A stretch of DNA of 64,000 nt from Enterobacteria phage vB_EcoM_IME339. The notes beneath the pieces were generated by a model. The model was not told where the DNA came from, did no database searches, and saw only the letters and a list, made by a program, of their open reading frames with translations. Of the stretch, positions 12,391-45,277 are shown in pieces; within the stretch, counting starts at the first letter, position 1; every line of letters begins with the position of its first letter. A program made the translations under genes and the position numbers. The DNA is taken from sequence record MH051915. One strand, 5' to 3'.

Positions 12391-15300
12391 TTACATAAGT
12401 TTAGATTCAAGTTCTTTTACACGAGAAGAAAGCGTTTTCACAGCTTCAACCAGAAGAGCAATCTGGGCTTGAGAAGAAACAGTGAGTATTTTATTACCCT
12501 TTCTATCTTCTGTTTCACGGACAGCTTCTGGTAAAACGTCTTGTAACGTTTGAGCCACAATACCCGCTTCAGTTTCAATTGCCTCTCCACCGATGTATTC
12601 AGCTTTATCGTAAATGACACCGTTAAGTTTTTCAACTTTATCAAGTGCATTTTCGATAGGTTTGAAGTTGGATTTTAAACGAATATCAGAACGAATATAA
12701 ACGTTTGGAGCATTTATATTTTTGTATGAGTACAAATCACCATTTTGGAAACGGAATACTTGTACGCTGTTCGCATATATGTCTAATAATCCATCGCCAT
12801 TTTGCTTAATACCAGTATCGTTATCACCAAATGTTATACTGTTTCCACCGAGACCATTTGATGTATTGACACCAAAGGCACCTGTTTGTGGTAGCAGTAC
12901 TTTACCAGGGCAGTCTAGAGTACCGTCCATTGTAAAGCGCCATCTTGCTTGCTGGCCATTAGCATTGTCGCCACGTATACGAATAATACCATCACGCCAT
13001 CCAGCGGTGGTACCAGAGCCGACCCATCCAAATTCAAAGGTTTGGCGATAACCCGCCGAGCCGTAGTTACTGTATGCACCTACAATAGGATAATAACTGC
13101 CTGAATTAGATAAATCCCCATGGTCTGCCATAAAGGTGATTTTAGATTTCATTGTATCCGAGTTATCAGCCCAACCAGACGCTCCTCGCCAACCTGCTAC
13201 TACACGAGACGAGATATTACCTAAACTAGTATTACCACTAGTAACATTCAAGCCACCAGTAACATTCAAGCCACCGCCGGTAATATTTAGACCATGGTTC
13301 ATACCAACGCGACCATCAGCCATATTAATGGAGAAAGGTCTTAAATTATTCCAATCACCACTAGCCGCATTGGGTTTTTCTGACGTATTCTTGTCTGTAG
13401 CTAAAATATAAAAACTTCCACCATCATTTCGAATGATAGCAGCATTCGAATCAATATCATTACCTCTGGATTTAATACGTAAACCTTTTTGGTTATTGGT
13501 AACAAATTCACCACGAGTAACAACATCAGATTCGCCAGCAGCAAACATTCCATCGATGTTATTCAATAATCTTACAGTTTTACCTACTACATGACCTTCT
13601 GGAAGTGTTTCAACAATAGGTTGAATTCCTCCGTTAAGACCGACTACGGTTACTGTACTATTACTGGTGCATGAATATTCGATGACTAAAGCATTTGAAT
13701 ATCCTCCCACATAAACATAAACGTCATATGTATCATTGCTCGTGTTAACTGTGGCAATTTGTGAAAATGCTTCAGAAGTTCTGTTCCATAATGTAGCGTT
13801 AAGTCCTTTAGGATTATTATTTCCAGTTCTAAGAATTATTTCTGCGACAGAAGCTTGCCCATAACTTTTAAAATTAAATCCTGAACCGCCATATATTTTA
13901 AATGCTACTGTTCCAGTAGATTGAGGAATATTAACTGTCGCAAACTTATACCATCCAGTTGTGGCTCCGCCTGACCAACCACCAACATCGACTTTATTGT
14001 TTAACGTTGTATTTAAGTTGGCAAAATTACCAGTACCGCCTGTGATGTTGCCATCTGTACCAATTCGAATATTATTAATTTTAAGAGGCTTAGTAATATC
14101 GACAGTATCAGAGTTTAATGCAATACCATGTGAATAGGTGTAGTTATGCATACGAACGACGTTTCCGCCATCGCCAATACCTAAATACCATTTTGTAACA
14201 TCCGCTTTACGTCCTTGGATAAAGTTAGACGCTGCTTGAGAAGAAGCATTCAAAACAATACCGTCGGAATCCATGTTAACACGAAGTCTAACATCGGTTT
14301 GAACAAATTTTGATACGTTATCAATAGTAAGCAAATTTTTTCCAGCTTGTGTATGATTGCCCATCATAACACTGCCATTTGCGAGATTGATGGTAAATGG
14401 GCGTAAATTACTTATTCCACCACTTTCGCCAGCATCTTTAGGAGTTGGGATAATATAAAAGTTAGTTTCCGAACGACGGAAAATAGCACCGTATTCAGCA
14501 TTCCAAATTCTTAATGCATCAGCAGTTCCGCCAAATTTGGCTTGGCCGTTTATAGACATTCCGTTATTAGCAACTAAACTTGATTCAGTAACAATAGAAC
14601 CGGAAGCAGTAATACCACCAGAAGTTAATAAACCACCATTAACTCGGAGTTGAATAGGCCCGACAGTCGAACCAGGTGCAGGAGCTACGCGTTGAGAATA
14701 AAAATGGTAACCTTGCCCATCTGATACTTCAAAGACTGTTTCACGATTACGATCACCAGATGCGTTAAATGAATTTCCCCATGCTTTAACTGTAACAGGG
14801 CTTTTGTTTTGACCTGCGCGAGTACCACTGTTCCAGTATATACTTCTAGTACCATCTGCAGCCGTCGGGGCGTTAAACTGGAATCCCTGATTATCAGGTC
14901 CATCAATAATTATGCCTTTATTAAGACGAAAAGCTAATGTAGAATTAATACTTCCAGTTGCGGCATTAAAGCTAATACTTTCACCGCCGGTGGTTAACTT
15001 CAATATACCTGGGTTAACGTCTACACCTTCCTGAGTATTAATATTAGTTTTGCCTTTACCGCGGAAATAATGACTCATTTTACCGCCAGCATTGTACCCA
15101 ATATGCGTCTGGCCGTCTCCAGCATTGTTATTATCAGCTTGCGTTTGAACAGACAAGAAAGCGGCATTAGTGCCAGGCATAATCCATGTGGTGCCTTGGT
15201 CCTCGGAACGACCAAATATACCTTTACGAGTACTACGGAAACTGTCAGGAGTAATAGAAGCAACAGAATATCCACCGCCAACTAGATCAAATACACCAGT

Positions 15301-16239
15301 TTTTTTGTATGACAAGCCAGTTACAGTGTCACCGAGAACAAGATATTTATCGCCCATTACACCGACGTTGCCATAATCACTAGACGGGAAATTTGTAGTG
15401 AATGTACCTAATGCAAGGCTATTACGGCCTGCCATTCGTCCGTCATTACGAATGCCATATTGTTTAGATGATGGAGTATTACCTGTCCACCAAGACATTT
15501 CATCAGCCTGGCCAGTCTGAGCAGTACAAAGCTCATGCCACATAGTGCCACCTGATTTAGCTCGAACTTTACGAAGATAGTTTACACCATTTGTTTCACC
15601 GGTTCCAGGATAAACATACTGAACTAATGATTGTGAATCGTATTGTCCAAAGGCTTTAGAATCATGATTAATTAAATTAACACTAATAGTTGGTGTACTA
15701 ATAGAAGTTAAAGCAGTTAATTTGCGTGCCTGGAAGATACCACCATCAGTAGAAATGAAATGAAATTCTGAATTTTGAGCTCCCGCAGCGGTTCCTTGAC
15801 GAACACGCATTGTAATTACGCCTTCATTTTCAGACTGCGGTTTTGAATATAAAACGCCACGTTCTGAGCCATTTGTATTTTCAAACCAAAGATGGGCATT
15901 TGCAGTATCATTTATTGCTCTTGTATAAAATGAACCGGATGTTGATCTGAATACTGTAGCAGAAACAATATTACTTGCCGTAATAGTACCACTTGTAGAA
16001 AAATTTCCAAAGTTGTTTATTGGTCCATTGACGCGTAAAGTTCCATCAATAGTTACATTTCCATCAATTTGACCTCCTTTAGCAATACCTAGATCAATGA
16101 TATTTCCTGAATCATCTTTAGTAAAAATTGTTCTATCTTTTAAGTTTATAGCCAATTCACCTTCGGCTAATACTGAAGCAGCAGGACGTGCACCTGCGGT
16201 TTTGCTTCTTTTAAATTGTATTTGTTTTAAAGTAGCCAT
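12391..16239 (-). CDS. 37: long tail fiber distal subunit gp37 with C-terminal intramolecular chaperone (peptidase S74-like) domain
   Basis: 1282 aa (T4 gp37 is 1026 aa); C-terminal region carries [11 protein letters not shown]...LDKVEKL...[15 protein letters not shown]...LLVEAVKTL, matching the self-cleaving chaperone family. Confidence 0.85.
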
Positions 16240-41837: not shown

Positions 41838-42034
41838 TGAAATTCTTTTTAGGTCAAACTGTTGAATTAAAGGGAGTTGGTATACCTGGATTAATTTCTA
41901 AGGTTCTACCTCCATTTAAATGGAGTGGTATTCAAATAAAAGAGGCTTATATTGTTTCCTGGGTAGATGGAAATGAAGACCTTCGTATGGGTGATGAATT
42001 ATCTCCTATCTATGGATTAAAGGAATTAATATGA
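41837..42034 (+). CDS. hypothetical protein (65 aa)
   Basis: ORF with TAATG overlap. Confidence 0.45.
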   Translation: MKFFLGQTVELKGVGIPGLISKVLPPFKWSGIQIKEAYIVSWVDGNEDLRMGDELSPIYGLKELI

Positions 42035-42237
42035 ATATAATTAATAAGATTTTTGGAATTCAGTACATTAAGGTCACATATAAAGTAACGTATAAAGGTC
42101 CGTATACCGATGAACATGAAGAGCCACAAGTTCAGTCTATTATATTAGAAAAGGACCCTAACTGGCCAGTTGAATTTCGTCTTCCTTGCTATGGTCATTG
42201 GGCTGATGTTGAAATTATAAGTATTGAAAATGTCTGA
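42031..42237 (+). CDS. hypothetical protein (68 aa)
   Basis: ORF with ATGA overlap. Confidence 0.45.
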   Translation: MNIINKIFGIQYIKVTYKVTYKGPYTDEHEEPQVQSIILEKDPNWPVEFRLPCYGHWADVEIISIENV

Positions 42238-42688
42238 GTTAGAGATTAGAAGCAATTTTAGATGGCCATCATGTGCATTAAGTAATTTCGCCCAATGGCC
42301 TTTTGTTATGGATGGTATCCAATTTGGAGGTCTCGAAGGATTCCTCCAAGGATGCAAGGTGAAAAATGTTGAACAACAGCGTCGTATATTTGGGTTATCC
42401 GGGCTTGCCGCCCAACAAGCTGGAAGGTCTTATGCAAGAGCTCAGGACCGTGGCACGTTGTTCTGGCTTGGAACTCCGTTTTCAAGATATTCCGAAGCAT
42501 GGAAAGAATTATACACAAATGCATATTTTGAAGCAGCGATCCAAAACAAGGGATTTCGCAATGCATTACAAGCCTCGAAAGGAAAAGTTTTGAAGCATAG
42601 CATGGCTAGTGGTCTAACAAAAGATGATACAATACTAACCGAAGCTGAATTTATTGATGTGTTAAACCTATTAAGAGACTCTCTATGA
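42224..42688 (+). CDS. NADAR/YbiA-like (DUF1768) protein, candidate ADP-ribose-processing hydrolase
   Basis: N-terminal block CALSNFAQWPFVMDGIQFGGLEGFLQGCKV resembles the YbiA/NADAR signature; about 154 aa, typical family size. Confidence 0.5.
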   Translation: MKMSELEIRSNFRWPSCALSNFAQWPFVMDGIQFGGLEGFLQGCKVKNVEQQRRIFGLSGLAAQQAGRSYARAQDRGTLFWLGTPFSRYSEAWKELYTNAYFEAAIQNKGFRNALQASKGKVLKHSMASGLTKDDTILTEAEFIDVLNLLRDSL

Positions 42689-43548
42689 AGCCAACTATTT
42701 TGACTGATATTGATGGAGTATGTTTAAGCTGGCAATCAGGCCTTCCTTATTTTGCTCAGAAATATAATCTTCCATTAGAACATATTTTAAAAATGATCCA
42801 AGATGAGAAATTTATTTCTCCAGGTAAACTCTTTAATTGTGACGAAGAACTTGGCGTCAAGTTAATTGAAAAATACAATCGTTCAGATTTTATTCGTTAT
42901 TTGTCTCCGTATAAAGATGCCCTGTGTGTAATTAACAAATTAAAAGAAGATTATAATTTTGTAGCTGTTACAGCATTGGGTGATTCTATTGACGCTCTGT
43001 TGAATCGTCAATTTAATTTGAATGCTCTTTTTCCTGGTGCCTTCTCAGAAGTAATGATGTGTGGTCATGATTCTTCAAAAGAAGAGTTATTCAAAAAGGC
43101 AAAAGAGAAATATAACGTAATTTGTTATATTGACGATCTCGCTCACCACTGCGACCATGCGAGTGAAATATTAAATGTTCCGGTTTATTGGATGGCTCGA
43201 GGAGAGCGTGATAAAATTCCAAAAACTGCGCAGCGAGTTTATACATGGAATGATGTAGAAAATAAGCTTTTTTCACCAAAGGAAAATAAAGAAAGTTTTG
43301 ATAGTGAAAAAGCTATAAAAGATGTAATTGAGAAGATGGTTAAAAACGATTCTTTTCGTTGGAACACTACCTGGAGAACTCCTGGATTTAATCCGTATAA
43401 TCCATATTATACACATCCATATAATCCATATTATACACACCCGTATCATATGAATCCATTCCATACGTGGAGTTATACCAAGCCTGGCGATGCAGGGTAT
43501 TTTAATAGATTTACTAGTGGTGATAATATTTTCCAAGGAGCATTCTAA
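42685..43548 (+). CDS. HAD-superfamily hydrolase-like protein (nucleotidase-like N-terminus) with Tyr/Pro/His-rich repeat tail
   Basis: HAD motif I LTDIDGV near the N-terminus; C-terminus NPYNPYYTHPYNPYYTHPYHMNPFHTW. Confidence 0.5.
   Translation: MKPTILTDIDGVCLSWQSGLPYFAQKYNLPLEHILKMIQDEKFISPGKLFNCDEELGVKLIEKYNRSDFIRYLSPYKDALCVINKLKEDYNFVAVTALGDSIDALLNRQFNLNALFPGAFSEVMMCGHDSSKEELFKKAKEKYNVICYIDDLAHHCDHASEILNVPVYWMARGERDKIPKTAQRVYTWNDVENKLFSPKENKESFDSEKAIKDVIEKMVKNDSFRWNTTWRTPGFNPYNPYYTHPYNPYYTHPYHMNPFHTWSYTKPGDAGYFNRFTSGDNIFQGAF
43393..43440 (+). repeat. 24-bp tandem repeat (2 copies, near-identical) inside the HAD-like ORF
   Basis: ccgtataatccatattatacacat / ccatataatccatattatacacac. Confidence 0.7.
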
Positions 43549-43817
43549 TGTTTGTCGTTCACACTATTTATGAAAATGAAGGTAATACTACGCGTGATTA
43601 CGGTCACGTAAATCAATTTTTTAGATGCAATCCAGAGTTCCGAGCTCAAAAGGATGAACGAATTTTTAAAAAATGTGTAGAGCAAGGTTTCATTTATATC
43701 AAGCACTGGATGCAAGGAAATAAAGTTAGAACTACATATCATAGGTCTTTAACTGAGCTTAATGATGAATTGATTTATAATAGAGCTGTAAATCAAACTC
43801 TGAAGGATGAACAATGA
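43548..43817 (+). CDS. hypothetical protein (89 aa)
   Basis: ORF with TAATG overlap. Confidence 0.5.
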   Translation: MFVVHTIYENEGNTTRDYGHVNQFFRCNPEFRAQKDERIFKKCVEQGFIYIKHWMQGNKVRTTYHRSLTELNDELIYNRAVNQTLKDEQ

Positions 43818-45277
43818 TTCTTAAAATTCTGAATGAAATAGCATCTATTGGATCAACTAAGCAGAAGCAAGCAATTCTTGAAAAGAATAAAGATAATGAA
43901 TTGCTTAAACGAGTATATCGTCTGACTTATTCTCGTGGGTTACAGTATTATATCAAGAAATGGCCTAAACCTGGTATTGCTACCCAGAGTTTTGGAATGC
44001 TGACTATTACCGATATGCTTGACTTCATTGAATTCACGTTAGCTACTCGGAAATTGACTGGAAATGCTGCAATTGAGGAATTAACTGGATATATCACTGA
44101 TGGTAAAAAGGATGATGTTGAAGTTTTGCGTCGAGTTATGATGCGAGACCTTGAATGTGGTGCTTCAGTATCTATTGCAAACAAAGTTTGGCCAGGTTTA
44201 ATTCCTGAACAACCTCAAATGCTAGCAAGTTCTTATGATGAAAAAGGCATTAATAAGAATATCAAGTTTCCAGCTTTTGCACAGCTAAAAGCAGATGGAG
44301 CTCGGTGTTTTGCTGAAGTTCGAGGTGATGAATTAGATGATGTTCGTCTTTTATCACGAGCTGGTAATGAATATCTAGGATTAGATCTTCTTAAGGAAGA
44401 GTTAATCAAAATGACTGCTGAAGCCCGCCAGATTCATCCAGAAGGTGTGTTAATTGATGGCGAATTGGTATACCATGAGCAAGTTAAAAAGGAACCAGAA
44501 GGCCTAGATTTTCTTTTTGATGCTTATCCTGAAATTAGTAAAGCTAAAGAATTCGCCGAAGTAGCGGAATCTCGTACTGCTTCTAATGGAATCGCCAATA
44601 AATCCTTAAAAGGAACCATTTCTGAAAAAGAAGCTCAATGCATGAAGTTTCAGGTCTGGGATTATGTCCCGTTGGTAGAAATATACGGTCTTCCGGCATT
44701 TCGTTTAAAATATGATGTACGTTTTTCTAAACTAGAACAAATGACATCAGGATATGATAAAGTAATTTTAATTGAAAACCAAGTAGTAAATAACCTAGAT
44801 GAAGCTAAGGTAATTTATAAAAAGTATATTGACCAAGGTCTCGAAGGTATTATTCTCAAAAATACCGATGGATTGTGGGAAAATGCTCGTTCAAAAAATC
44901 TCTATAAATTTAAAGAAGTAATTGATGTTGATTTAAAAATTGTAGGAATTTATCCTCACCGTAAAGACCCTACTAAAGCGGGTGGGTTTATTCTTGAATC
45001 AGAGTGTGGAAAAATTAAAGTAAATGCAGGTTCAGGCTTAAAAGATAAAGCCGGTGTAAAATCGCATGAACTTGACCGTACTCGCATTATGGAAAACCAA
45101 AATTATTATATTGGAAAAATTCTAGAGTGCGAATGCAACGGTTGGTTAAAATCTGATGGCCGCACTGATTACGTTAAATTATTTCTTCCGATTGCGATTC
45201 GTTTGCGTGAAGATAAAACTAAAGCTAATACATTCGAAGATGTATTTGGTGATTTTCATGAGGTAACTGGTCTATGA
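43814..45277 (+). CDS. 30: ATP-dependent DNA ligase
   Basis: 487 aa, same length as T4 DNA ligase; N-terminus MILKILNEIASIGSTKQKQAILEKNKDNELLKRVYRLTYSRGLQYYIKKWPKPG matches T4 ligase; catalytic KADG motif. Confidence 0.95.
   Translation: MILKILNEIASIGSTKQKQAILEKNKDNELLKRVYRLTYSRGLQYYIKKWPKPGIATQSFGMLTITDMLDFIEFTLATRKLTGNAAIEELTGYITDGKKDDVEVLRRVMMRDLECGASVSIANKVWPGLIPEQPQMLASSYDEKGINKNIKFPAFAQLKADGARCFAEVRGDELDDVRLLSRAGNEYLGLDLLKEELIKMTAEARQIHPEGVLIDGELVYHEQVKKEPEGLDFLFDAYPEISKAKEFAEVAESRTASNGIANKSLKGTISEKEAQCMKFQVWDYVPLVEIYGLPAFRLKYDVRFSKLEQMTSGYDKVILIENQVVNNLDEAKVIYKKYIDQGLEGIILKNTDGLWENARSKNLYKFKEVIDVDLKIVGIYPHRKDPTKAGGFILESECGKIKVNAGSGLKDKAGVKSHELDRTRIMENQNYYIGKILECECNGWLKSDGRTDYVKLFLPIAIRLREDKTKANTFEDVFGDFHEVTGL

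What the first reader, a model, noticed from the sequence alone, without database searches (positions are those of the whole stretch)
42685..43548. HAD-like hydrolase ORF with a Tyr/Pro/His-rich tandem-repeat tail
The ORF starts with a HAD motif I (LTDIDGV), suggesting a phosphatase or nucleotidase-like enzyme. It ends in an unusual low-complexity tail, NPYNPYYTHPYNPYYTHPYHMNPFHTW, encoded by a 24-bp tandem repeat at 43393..43440. Repeat-encoded aromatic tails are atypical for HAD enzymes and could be a metal-binding or interaction module whose copy number can change by slippage. It overlaps the NADAR-like ORF by 4 nt, implying translational coupling.
Basis: seen in the sequence. Interest (0 to 1): 0.45.

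Follow-up and report, generated by a model that had tools for sequence, protein, structure and literature searches.

The report
T4 gene 30.2: HAD phosphatase, variable tail
This is the T4-like phage gene 30.2: a phosphatase-type (HAD) enzyme of untested function with a floppy, fast-evolving C-terminal tail in which this phage lineage carries an extra 8-residue duplication, making it a tidy case of repeat-driven length variation but not a new kind of system.

Summary
The window is a Tequatrovirus (T4-like phage). ORF 42685..43548 is the orthologue of T4 gene 30.2. It lies between 30.3 (AdfN, the published NADAR anti-DarTG1 enzyme) and 30.1, just upstream of DNA ligase.

Residues 1 to about 195 form a confidently modelled HAD fold with a helical cap. 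All four catalytic motifs are conserved across 61 relatives: D8, D10, K132 and D150-D151 invariant, T96 in at least 90%. The nearest family is NT5C 5'(3')-deoxyribonucleotidase, but scores stay below Pfam's threshold and the substrate is unknown.

The tail is predicted disordered after one helix. The 24-bp tandem duplication at 43391..43438 (23/24 identical) is real. Related phages form an allelic series of one copy (D5505), two copies (the window and about 57 other records) and two copies plus 9 bp (RPN226). At least eight in-frame indels fall in the 175-nt tail and none in the 690-nt core.

The two-copy allele is inherited stably, so this is slow slippage-type change and not a phase-variable switch. 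The tail's one semi-conserved His gives no support for metal binding. The tail is an old module: distant orthologues share W-x-x-P, P-W/Y-Y-x-H-P and a terminal GxGIEYLxRQPT peptide, which is degenerate here. It is best read as a disordered tether carrying a docking motif. Interest is modest.

The parts
42685..43548 (+). CDS (287 aa plus stop), orthologue of T4 gene 30.2 (NP_049815, annotated 'hypothetical protein')
   Evidence: ORF list. megablast finds 653 phage records, including T4 30.2 at 94% identity. T4 annotation. PHROG 420, E=3e-89.
42685..43269 (+). HAD catalytic core plus cap, residues 1 to about 195
42700..42720 (+). HAD motif I, L-T-D8-I-D10-G-V (nucleophile Asp8, acid/base Asp10)
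   Evidence: D8 and D10 are invariant in 61 sequences. They lie at the end of strand 4-7 in the model.
42730..42942 (+). Helical C1-type cap, residues about 16-86, inserted between motifs I and II
   Evidence: Helices 16-26, 32-40, 46-49, 54-65, 68-72 and 77-86 in the model. Top structural matches are C1-capped HADs.
42970..42972 (+). HAD motif II, Thr96 (FVAVTALG)
   Evidence: Conserved in at least 90% of 61 sequences. At the end of strand 91-96.
43078..43080 (+). HAD motif III, Lys132
   Evidence: Invariant. Precedes helix 133-142.
43132..43137 (+). HAD motif IV, Asp150-Asp151 (YIDDLAHH)
   Evidence: Invariant. At the end of strand 145-150.
43303..43344 (+). Amphipathic helix at the start of the C-terminal extension, residues 207-220 (EKAIKDVIEKMVKN)
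   Evidence: Helix in the AF2 model; the 10-residue block covering 211-220 has mean pLDDT 87. The equivalent long helix 194-223 appears in the Klebsiella-phage orthologue model.
43366..43545 (+). Predicted disordered Tyr/Pro/Thr/Asn/Phe/His-rich tail, residues 228-287
   Evidence: pLDDT below 56. The same result in a second orthologue. Composition. At least 8 in-frame indel events among close relatives.
43391..43438 (+). Tandem duplication, 2 x 24 bp (ATCC[G/A]TATAATCCATATTATACAC), encoding PYNPYYTH twice
   Evidence: TRF. The repeat finder reports 96% identity. T2 and D5505 lack exactly one 24-bp unit, and RPN226 has an extra 9-bp NPY unit. Present in about 58 phage records.
43480..43515 (+). 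Degenerate copy (KPGDAGYFNRFT) of the family's conserved terminal peptide GxGIEYLxRQPT
   Evidence: Tail alignments A2 and A4. T4 has the canonical KPGGIEYLYNRPT.
43535..43540 (+). AAGGAG Shine-Dalgarno of gene 30.1, embedded in the last codons of 30.2 (Q-G-A), 7 nt before ATG 43548
   Evidence: Read from the sequence. This stretch is almost invariant among the 14 aligned alleles.
42685..42688 (+). ATGA start/stop overlap between 30.3 (adfN) and 30.2
   Evidence: The same arrangement is annotated in T4.
42230..42688 (+). Upstream gene 30.3 = adfN (NADAR DNA ADP-ribosylglycohydrolase). Context only, not part of the enzyme.
   Evidence: Pfam Phage_30_3, E=6e-69. PMC11257639. Start placed by the length of the T4 annotation.

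Best explanation
The ORF is the T4 gene 30.2 orthologue. It is an early-region, Mg2+-dependent, HAD-type phosphomonoesterase with a DxD motif I and a helical C1 cap. That architecture points to a small phosphorylated metabolite as substrate. The most likely substrate is a (deoxy)nucleoside monophosphate or a related sugar phosphate, because the nearest relatives are the NT5C 5'(3')-deoxyribonucleotidases.

A roughly 90-residue C-terminal extension follows the enzyme and is not needed for catalysis, since about a third of the family lacks it. It consists of one amphipathic helix and then an intrinsically disordered, aromatic/Pro-rich tether. In many genera the tether ends in a conserved short peptide, GxGIEYLxRQPT. 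I infer that this peptide is a docking or regulatory motif (partner binding, oligomerisation or auto-regulation) and that the repeat region is a length-tolerant spacer.

The 24-bp tandem duplication is a replication-slippage or unequal-recombination event that doubled a P-Y-Y-T-H-P element in one Tequatrovirus sub-lineage. That lineage has since inherited it stably.

Shown: gene identity, the HAD fold and motifs, predicted disorder of the tail, the in-frame length polymorphism and the conservation of the motif. Inferred: the substrate class, the docking role of the tail and the slippage mechanism.
For: Identity and context.

HAD assignment:
- D8, D10, K132 and D150-D151 are invariant and T96 is conserved in at least 90% of 61 sequences.
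- AF2 core pLDDT exceeds 92, with each motif at the expected strand end.

NT5C as nearest family:
- The best PDB profile hit is 2jao, a 5'(3')-deoxyribonucleotidase.
- 9 of 61 members hit Pfam NT5C and 12 of 61 hit Hydrolase.
- P0099 aligns with NT5C end to end at 22.4 bits.
- 3bwv, 2jao, 2i7d and 4yih give the best rmsd and TM-scores.
- Some GenBank records already call the gene a HAD-like hydrolase or 5'-3' deoxyribonucleotidase.

Tail dispensable for catalysis: many family members are only 196-220 aa.

Tail disordered: two independent AF2 runs.

Tail is an old module: anchors are shared with orthologues of about 47-50% identity, and E42, Y43 and T48 of the terminal peptide are at least 90% conserved.

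Length polymorphism:
- The series is 1 copy, 2 copies and 2 copies plus 9 bp on one tail type.
- At least 8 in-frame indels fall in 175 nt and none in 690 nt, p about 3e-6 under a uniform rate.
- A 1-nt frameshift in the repeat would truncate the protein at 246-255 aa and remove the terminal motif. No allele I translated shows this.
Against: - No biochemical data exist for gp30.2; three literature searches found nothing.
- The window protein matches no Pfam or NCBIfam model.
- A dNMP phosphatase looks counter-productive for a phage that salvages host dNMPs (my own knowledge of T4 biology).
- The terminal motif is degenerate in this window's haplotype (GDAGYFNRFT). That haplotype is common: 149 of 384 matching records align over at least 80% of the window-type tail end, a rough count that also includes some T4-type records at low identity. 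This weakens the claim that the motif is essential here.
- AF2 gives no docking pose, and no partner is known.
- Part of the extreme C-terminal conservation in Tequatrovirus is explained by the embedded ribosome-binding site of 30.1.
Confidence: 0.6

Rival explanations
1. The tail is essentially functionless. It is a relaxed, indel-tolerant appendage. The reading frame is preserved only because ribosomes must arrive at the TAATG junction and because the AAGGAG ribosome-binding site of 30.1 lies in the last codons. The repeat is neutral junk produced by slippage.
For: About a third of the family has no tail. Tails fall into at least six unrelated-looking classes. The tail is disordered in AF2. 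The terminal motif is degenerate in the window/T2 haplotype. The SD for 30.1 lies in the final codons. The tail profile finds no other scaffold.
Against: The GxGIEYLxRQPT peptide and the W-x-x-P and P-W-Y-E-H-P anchors are kept across orthologues whose cores are only about 47-50% identical. The downstream genes differ among these: no DUF3045 was recorded next to the homologues. 30.1 has its own strong SD, so it does not need upstream ribosomes. All indels seen are multiples of three.
Confidence: 0.25
2. One reading: the His/Tyr-rich repeat is a metal-binding or interaction module whose copy number changes frequently by slippage, giving phase-variable tuning of the enzyme.
For: Copy number does differ between phages: 1, 2, and 2 plus a 9-bp unit. 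Nested 9-bp and 24-bp repeats provide substrates for slippage. The tail has 7% His.
Against: About 57 records share the same two-copy allele. On the window's tail type only one one-copy variant and one +9-bp variant were seen. No allele has three or more 24-bp copies. His residues are not conserved apart from one H-P position. T4 has two His in this segment and most other tail classes have none in register.
Confidence: 0.07
3. The enzyme is not a nucleotidase. It acts with its conserved neighbour DNA ligase, for example as a DNA 3'-phosphatase that heals ends. Alternatively it acts with AdfN, processing a phosphorylated ADP-ribose-derived product.
Against: The large helical C1 cap (residues 16-86) encloses the active site, as in small-molecule HADs, whereas polynucleotide phosphatases are capless (established HAD classification, my own knowledge; model). 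T4-like phages already encode PseT, which is seen as a separate gene in the same loci. 30.3 is absent next to 4 of 5 distant homologues. AdfN alone is sufficient against DarTG1. Synteny with ligase may simply reflect the conserved T4 core gene order.
Confidence: 0.12

Closest known systems
Bacteriophage T4 gp30.2 (NP_049815; PHROG 420, 'unknown function')
   Same: Direct orthologue. 94% nucleotide identity over the alignable part. Same position between 30.3 and 30.1 upstream of DNA ligase, with the same ATGA and TAATG junctions.
   Different: T4 is 278 aa. Its tail reads FNPYNPYHPYQTHPFQTWNYIKPGGIEYLYNRPT, with no 24-bp duplication and the canonical terminal motif. The window is 287 aa with PYNPYYTH doubled and a degenerate motif, GDAGYFNRFT.
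NT5C family 5'(3')-deoxyribonucleotidases (Pfam PF06941; human/mouse cdN and mdN, PDB 2jao, 2i7d, 4yih; S. epidermidis 3bwv)
   Different: Sequence similarity is below Pfam's gathering score. The window protein has no hit, and the best relative scores 22.4 against 24.8 bits. The 30.2 family has its own invariant cap residues: W16, S18, Y64, S67, Y76, D78, N84, R108 and N111. No substrate data. NT5C enzymes lack the disordered C-terminal extension (my own knowledge).
T4 polynucleotide kinase/3'-phosphatase (PseT) HAD domain (PDB 1ltq)
   Different: PseT's phosphatase domain is capless and acts on nucleic-acid ends (my own knowledge). 30.2 has a roughly 70-residue helical cap. PseT is a separate gene in the same genomes.
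Intrinsically disordered tails carrying short linear motifs on phage replication and transcription proteins, such as the C-terminal clamp-binding peptides of T4 gp43, gp55 and gp33 (my own knowledge, used only as an analogy)
   Same: A flexible C-terminal tether ending in a short conserved peptide. The tether tolerates indels and the peptide is conserved.
   Different: No sequence resemblance was tested or shown and no partner is known. The analogy is functional only.

Membership tests
HAD (haloacid dehalogenase) superfamily, phosphatase type | Motif I hhhhDxDx[TV] with a nucleophile Asp and an Asp+2 general acid/base | tested here: met
   ILTD8ID10GV. D8 and D10 are invariant in 61 sequences and lie at the end of beta-strand 4-7.
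HAD (haloacid dehalogenase) superfamily, phosphatase type | Motif II (Thr/Ser at a strand end), motif III (Lys/Arg) and motif IV (acidic DD or DxxxD) | tested here: met
   T96 is at least 90% conserved. K132 and D150-D151 are invariant. Their positions fit strands 91-96 and 145-150 and helix 133-142.
HAD (haloacid dehalogenase) superfamily, phosphatase type | Rossmannoid alpha/beta core fold | tested here: met
HAD (haloacid dehalogenase) superfamily, phosphatase type | Mg2+-dependent phosphoryl transfer through an aspartyl-phosphate intermediate | not testable with these tools
   Needs an enzyme assay and a D8N/D10N control.
HAD subfamily I (C1 cap) | Helical cap inserted between motif I and motif II | tested here: met
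   Six helices spanning residues 16-86 lie between strands 4-7 and 91-96. The best matches are C1-capped enzymes.
NT5C 5'(3')-deoxyribonucleotidase family (PF06941) | Score at or above Pfam's gathering cut-off (24.8 bits) | tested here: not met
   The window protein has no hit at E<=1. The best relative, P0099, scores 22.4 bits with a full-length alignment. 9 of 61 members hit at E<=0.1.
NT5C 5'(3')-deoxyribonucleotidase family (PF06941) | Closest structural neighbour among HAD subfamilies | tested here: inconclusive
NT5C 5'(3')-deoxyribonucleotidase family (PF06941) | dNMP phosphatase activity | not testable with these tools
Contingency / phase-variable simple-sequence-repeat locus | Frequent, reversible copy-number change, usually switching the frame or expression | tested here: not met
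   All alleles are in frame. The same two-copy allele occurs in about 57 records, with only two variants on that tail type and no allele with three or more 24-bp copies. The within-population frequency was not measurable.
Translationally coupled 30.3-30.2 pair | Overlapping stop and start (ATGA), conserved across the family | tested here: inconclusive
   The overlap is present here and in T4. 30.3 is absent next to 4 of 5 distant homologues. Coupling itself needs a reporter assay.

The most novel reading that the evidence does not exclude
The C-terminal extension of the 30.2 family may be a rapidly diversifying interaction tether. Its conserved GxGIEYLxRQPT peptide would dock the phosphatase onto a still unknown phage or host partner, such as a nucleotide-metabolism or replication complex, or a host factor involved in phage-host conflict. 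The many tail classes, the recombinant alleles and the degenerate T2/window haplotype would then be the trace of an arms race. In that reading gp30.2 would be a targeted nucleotide-pool or anti-defence enzyme sitting next to the anti-DarT enzyme AdfN.
Probability: 0.15. Interest if true: 0.55.

Novelty: new member of a known kind. Interest (0 to 1): 0.27.

Why it matters
gp30.2 is one of the many conserved T4 genes that still have no known function. It sits in an early-gene block that has just yielded an anti-defence enzyme, AdfN (gp30.3). Showing that it has a complete HAD active site, an NT5C-like cap and a conserved C-terminal peptide gives a concrete set of experiments: substrate panels, D8N controls and tail pull-downs. 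The tail also offers a clean natural allelic series for studying how disordered linkers grow by short duplications. As it stands, though, this is a catalogued gene. The HAD nature is already noted in some GenBank records, and the repeat is an ordinary in-frame polymorphism.

Tried and rejected
- Direct Pfam and NCBIfam scans of the window protein gave no hit. The HAD signal needed family members, a profile and structure.
- phmmer against PDB sequences gave only a chance hit.
- I asked whether the TATAAT strings created by Tyr-Asn codons in the repeat form a promoter. The sigma-70 scan found 11 sites against 9.1 +/- 2.8 expected, so no enrichment. No terminators were found.
- An Rfam scan of 42000-44500 at E<=1 found nothing. 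Inverted repeats in the tail are weak, 72-76% complementary.
- A tail-only profile (A4) searched against 1.84 billion representative proteins returned only a family member and a fragmentary call of this same tail. There is therefore no evidence that the module sits on other scaffolds. A 40-position profile has limited power.
- A motif regex over all ORFs of the window matched only this gene.
- A second AF2 run on a canonical-motif orthologue did not dock the tail. It stayed below pLDDT 50, with only a short helical turn at IEYLN.
- Literature searches for gp30.2, NP_049815 and HAD plus T4 found nothing on this gene.
- IMG/VR gave only 10 related loci, so the allele census relied on the GenBank phage collection.
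- The antisense ORF 43273..43536 and the +1-frame ORF 43328..43453 were considered. I dismissed them as mechanical by-products of the AT-rich repeat, with no supporting evidence.

Full report
**What is there.** It starts MKPTILTDIDGV and contains NPYNPYYTHPYNPYYTHPYHMNPFHTW. Tandem Repeats Finder reports a 24-bp period with 2.3 copies at 43391..43446. The two full copies, 43391-43414 and 43415-43438, differ at one synonymous position. A nested 9-bp Asn-Pro-Tyr unit is also detected. This is one of only two tandem duplications of this kind in the 64-kb window, and none occurred in 20 shuffles. The ATGA overlap with the upstream ORF (42685-42688) and a TAATG overlap with the downstream ORF (43546-43550) are both present.

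**Identity and context.** The window is a Tequatrovirus. The gene matches 653 phage records, including T4 gene 30.2 (NC_000866.4 127474..128310, 'hypothetical protein'). The gene order is 30.3, 30.2, 30.1 (DUF3045), then gene 30 DNA ligase.

Gene 30.3 has been characterised experimentally as AdfN. It is a NADAR DNA ADP-ribosylglycohydrolase that is necessary and sufficient to overcome the DarTG1 defence system (PMC11257639). That paper mentions 30.2 only in a figure legend. I found no publication on gp30.2 itself.

**The enzyme.** The window protein hits no Pfam or NCBIfam model. It belongs to PHROG 420, 'unknown function'. Homologues are confined to T4-like phages of many hosts and range from 176 to 347 aa.

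- In an alignment of 61 members, D8 and D10 (motif I), K132 (motif III) and D150-D151 (motif IV) are invariant. T96 (motif II) is conserved in at least 90%.
- AlphaFold2 models residues 1-190 with pLDDT 92-98. Each motif sits at the expected strand end, and a six-helix cap (residues 16-86) lies between motifs I and II.
- The DxD motif marks a phosphatase or phosphomutase type of HAD, as opposed to a dehalogenase (established HAD knowledge).

The nearest curated family is NT5C, the 5'(3')-deoxyribonucleotidases:
- The best profile hit in the PDB is 2jao.
- 9 of 61 members hit PF06941.
- P0099 aligns end to end with that model at 22.4 bits.
- The tightest Foldseek superpositions are 3bwv, 2jao, 2i7d and 4yih.

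**The tail.** About a third of the family ends right after the core, at 196-220 aa. The rest carry extensions of 40-170 residues that fall into several classes. In the window protein the extension has one helix (residues 207-220). From residue 228 it is predicted disordered, with pLDDT below 56. An independent model of a Klebsiella-phage orthologue gives the same picture, with only a short helical turn at its IEYLN motif.

The tail is not arbitrary. Orthologues whose cores are about 47-50% identical share three elements: a W-x-x-P anchor, a P-[WY]-Y-x-H-P element and a terminal G-x-G-I-E-Y-L-x-R-Q-P-T peptide. T4 has KPGGIEYLYNRPT. The window, T2 and their relatives have a degenerate KPGDAGYFNRFT. 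The 8-residue unit duplicated in the window (PYNPYYTH) lies on the conserved P-Y-Y-T-H-P element.

A profile of the tail finds no other protein scaffold among 1.84 billion representatives.

**Length variation.** Among 16 Tequatrovirus alleles whose first 690 nt are 95-99% identical and contain no indels, the last 175 nt or so contain at least eight indel events. All are multiples of three. The chance of this under a uniform rate is about 3e-6.

On the window's own tail type (PYYTHPYHMNPFHTW) there is a clean series:

| Allele | 24-bp units | Protein length |
|---|---|---|
| D5505 | one | 279 aa |
| Window and about 57 other records | two | 287 aa |
| RPN226 | two, plus an extra 9-bp NPY unit | 290 aa |

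. On the DNA alignment T2 equals the window minus exactly one 24-bp unit, although it differs from the window at other tail sites. Other events include a 6-bp SG duplication and 3-bp and 9-bp NPY/HPY changes. The Ozark allele is a recombinant of the two tail haplotypes.

The same two-copy allele is shared by dozens of phages, however, and no allele has three or more copies. This points to rare slippage or unequal-recombination events that are then inherited, not to a phase-variable switch.

A 1-nt frameshift in the repeat would end the protein at 246-255 aa. None of the alleles I translated shows that. This argues that the distal tail is under selection.

One caveat applies. The last codons (CAA GGA GCA) contain the AAGGAG ribosome-binding site of 30.1. 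That explains part of the nucleotide invariance of the extreme C-terminus within Tequatrovirus.

**How it most likely works.** The core is a Mg2+-dependent phosphomonoesterase acting on a small phosphorylated metabolite, most plausibly a nucleotide. The fold and motifs are shown; the substrate is inferred. The extension is a disordered tether that tolerates indels. Its conserved terminal peptide probably mediates an interaction or regulation (inferred). Metal binding by the His/Tyr-rich repeat is not supported, because only one His position is semi-conserved.

The link to 30.3 is lineage-specific. Only 1 of 5 distant homologues has 30.3 next to it, whereas DNA ligase is adjacent or within two genes in all 5. 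That may simply be conserved T4 gene order.

**Other checks.** The repeat's TATAAT strings do not amount to promoter enrichment. There are no Rfam matches and no strong hairpins.

**Verdict.** This is a catalogued but uncharacterised T4 gene. It is a divergent member of a well-known enzyme superfamily, with an ordinary though nicely documented in-frame repeat polymorphism in a disordered tail. The conserved terminal peptide and the unknown substrate are the only points that merit follow-up.

Noticed in passing
window 13235-13270 (within ORF 12391..16239, minus strand): The only other tandem duplication of this type in the window. It has an 18-nt unit and lies inside the 1282-aa long-tail-fibre (gp34-like) ORF, encoding [12 protein letters not shown].
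   Followed up: partly
window 42230..42688 (+): Gene 30.3 is full length. It is the published AdfN NADAR enzyme that reverses DarT1 ADP-ribosylation of DNA, so this phage is predicted to resist DarTG1. The RB69 copy is truncated by a frameshift and that phage is sensitive (PMC11257639).
   Followed up: partly
window 42366..42593 (+): A 75-aa ORF in another frame inside 30.3. It is the counterpart of T4 30.3', annotated as internal translation in a different reading frame.
   Followed up: no
window 43535-43540: The AAGGAG Shine-Dalgarno of gene 30.1 lies inside the last codons of 30.2 (…F-Q-G-A-F*). This gives a dual coding and regulatory constraint on the extreme C-terminus.
   Followed up: yes
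P0013 (metagenomic contig of 1378 bp); P0066/P0068 (Yersinia phage phiR1-RT type); P0082: The C-terminus of this HAD family is a hotspot for added modules. P0013 is an in-frame fusion to DUF3045 (30.1), which may be an assembly frameshift. P0066 and P0068 carry an unrelated domain of about 120 aa. P0082 has a Cys-rich end.
   Followed up: no
L023-L027 (distant homologues): The 30.2 homologue is adjacent to, or within two genes of, ATP-dependent DNA ligase in all five distant contexts. This includes one (L026) where the ligase lies upstream and not downstream.
   Followed up: partly
L013 (phage Ozark), L022 (phage RPN226): The Ozark tail is a recombinant of the T4-type 5' half and the window/T2-type 3' half. 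In RPN226 gene 30.1 is annotated as two short CDSs, which suggests a frameshift.
   Followed up: no
P0002 (220 aa, 39 member sequences): A 30.2 homologue that ends abruptly in ...FDSRSEEHTSELQSQN. This looks like a chimeric or contaminated assembly end and not a true truncated allele.
   Followed up: no
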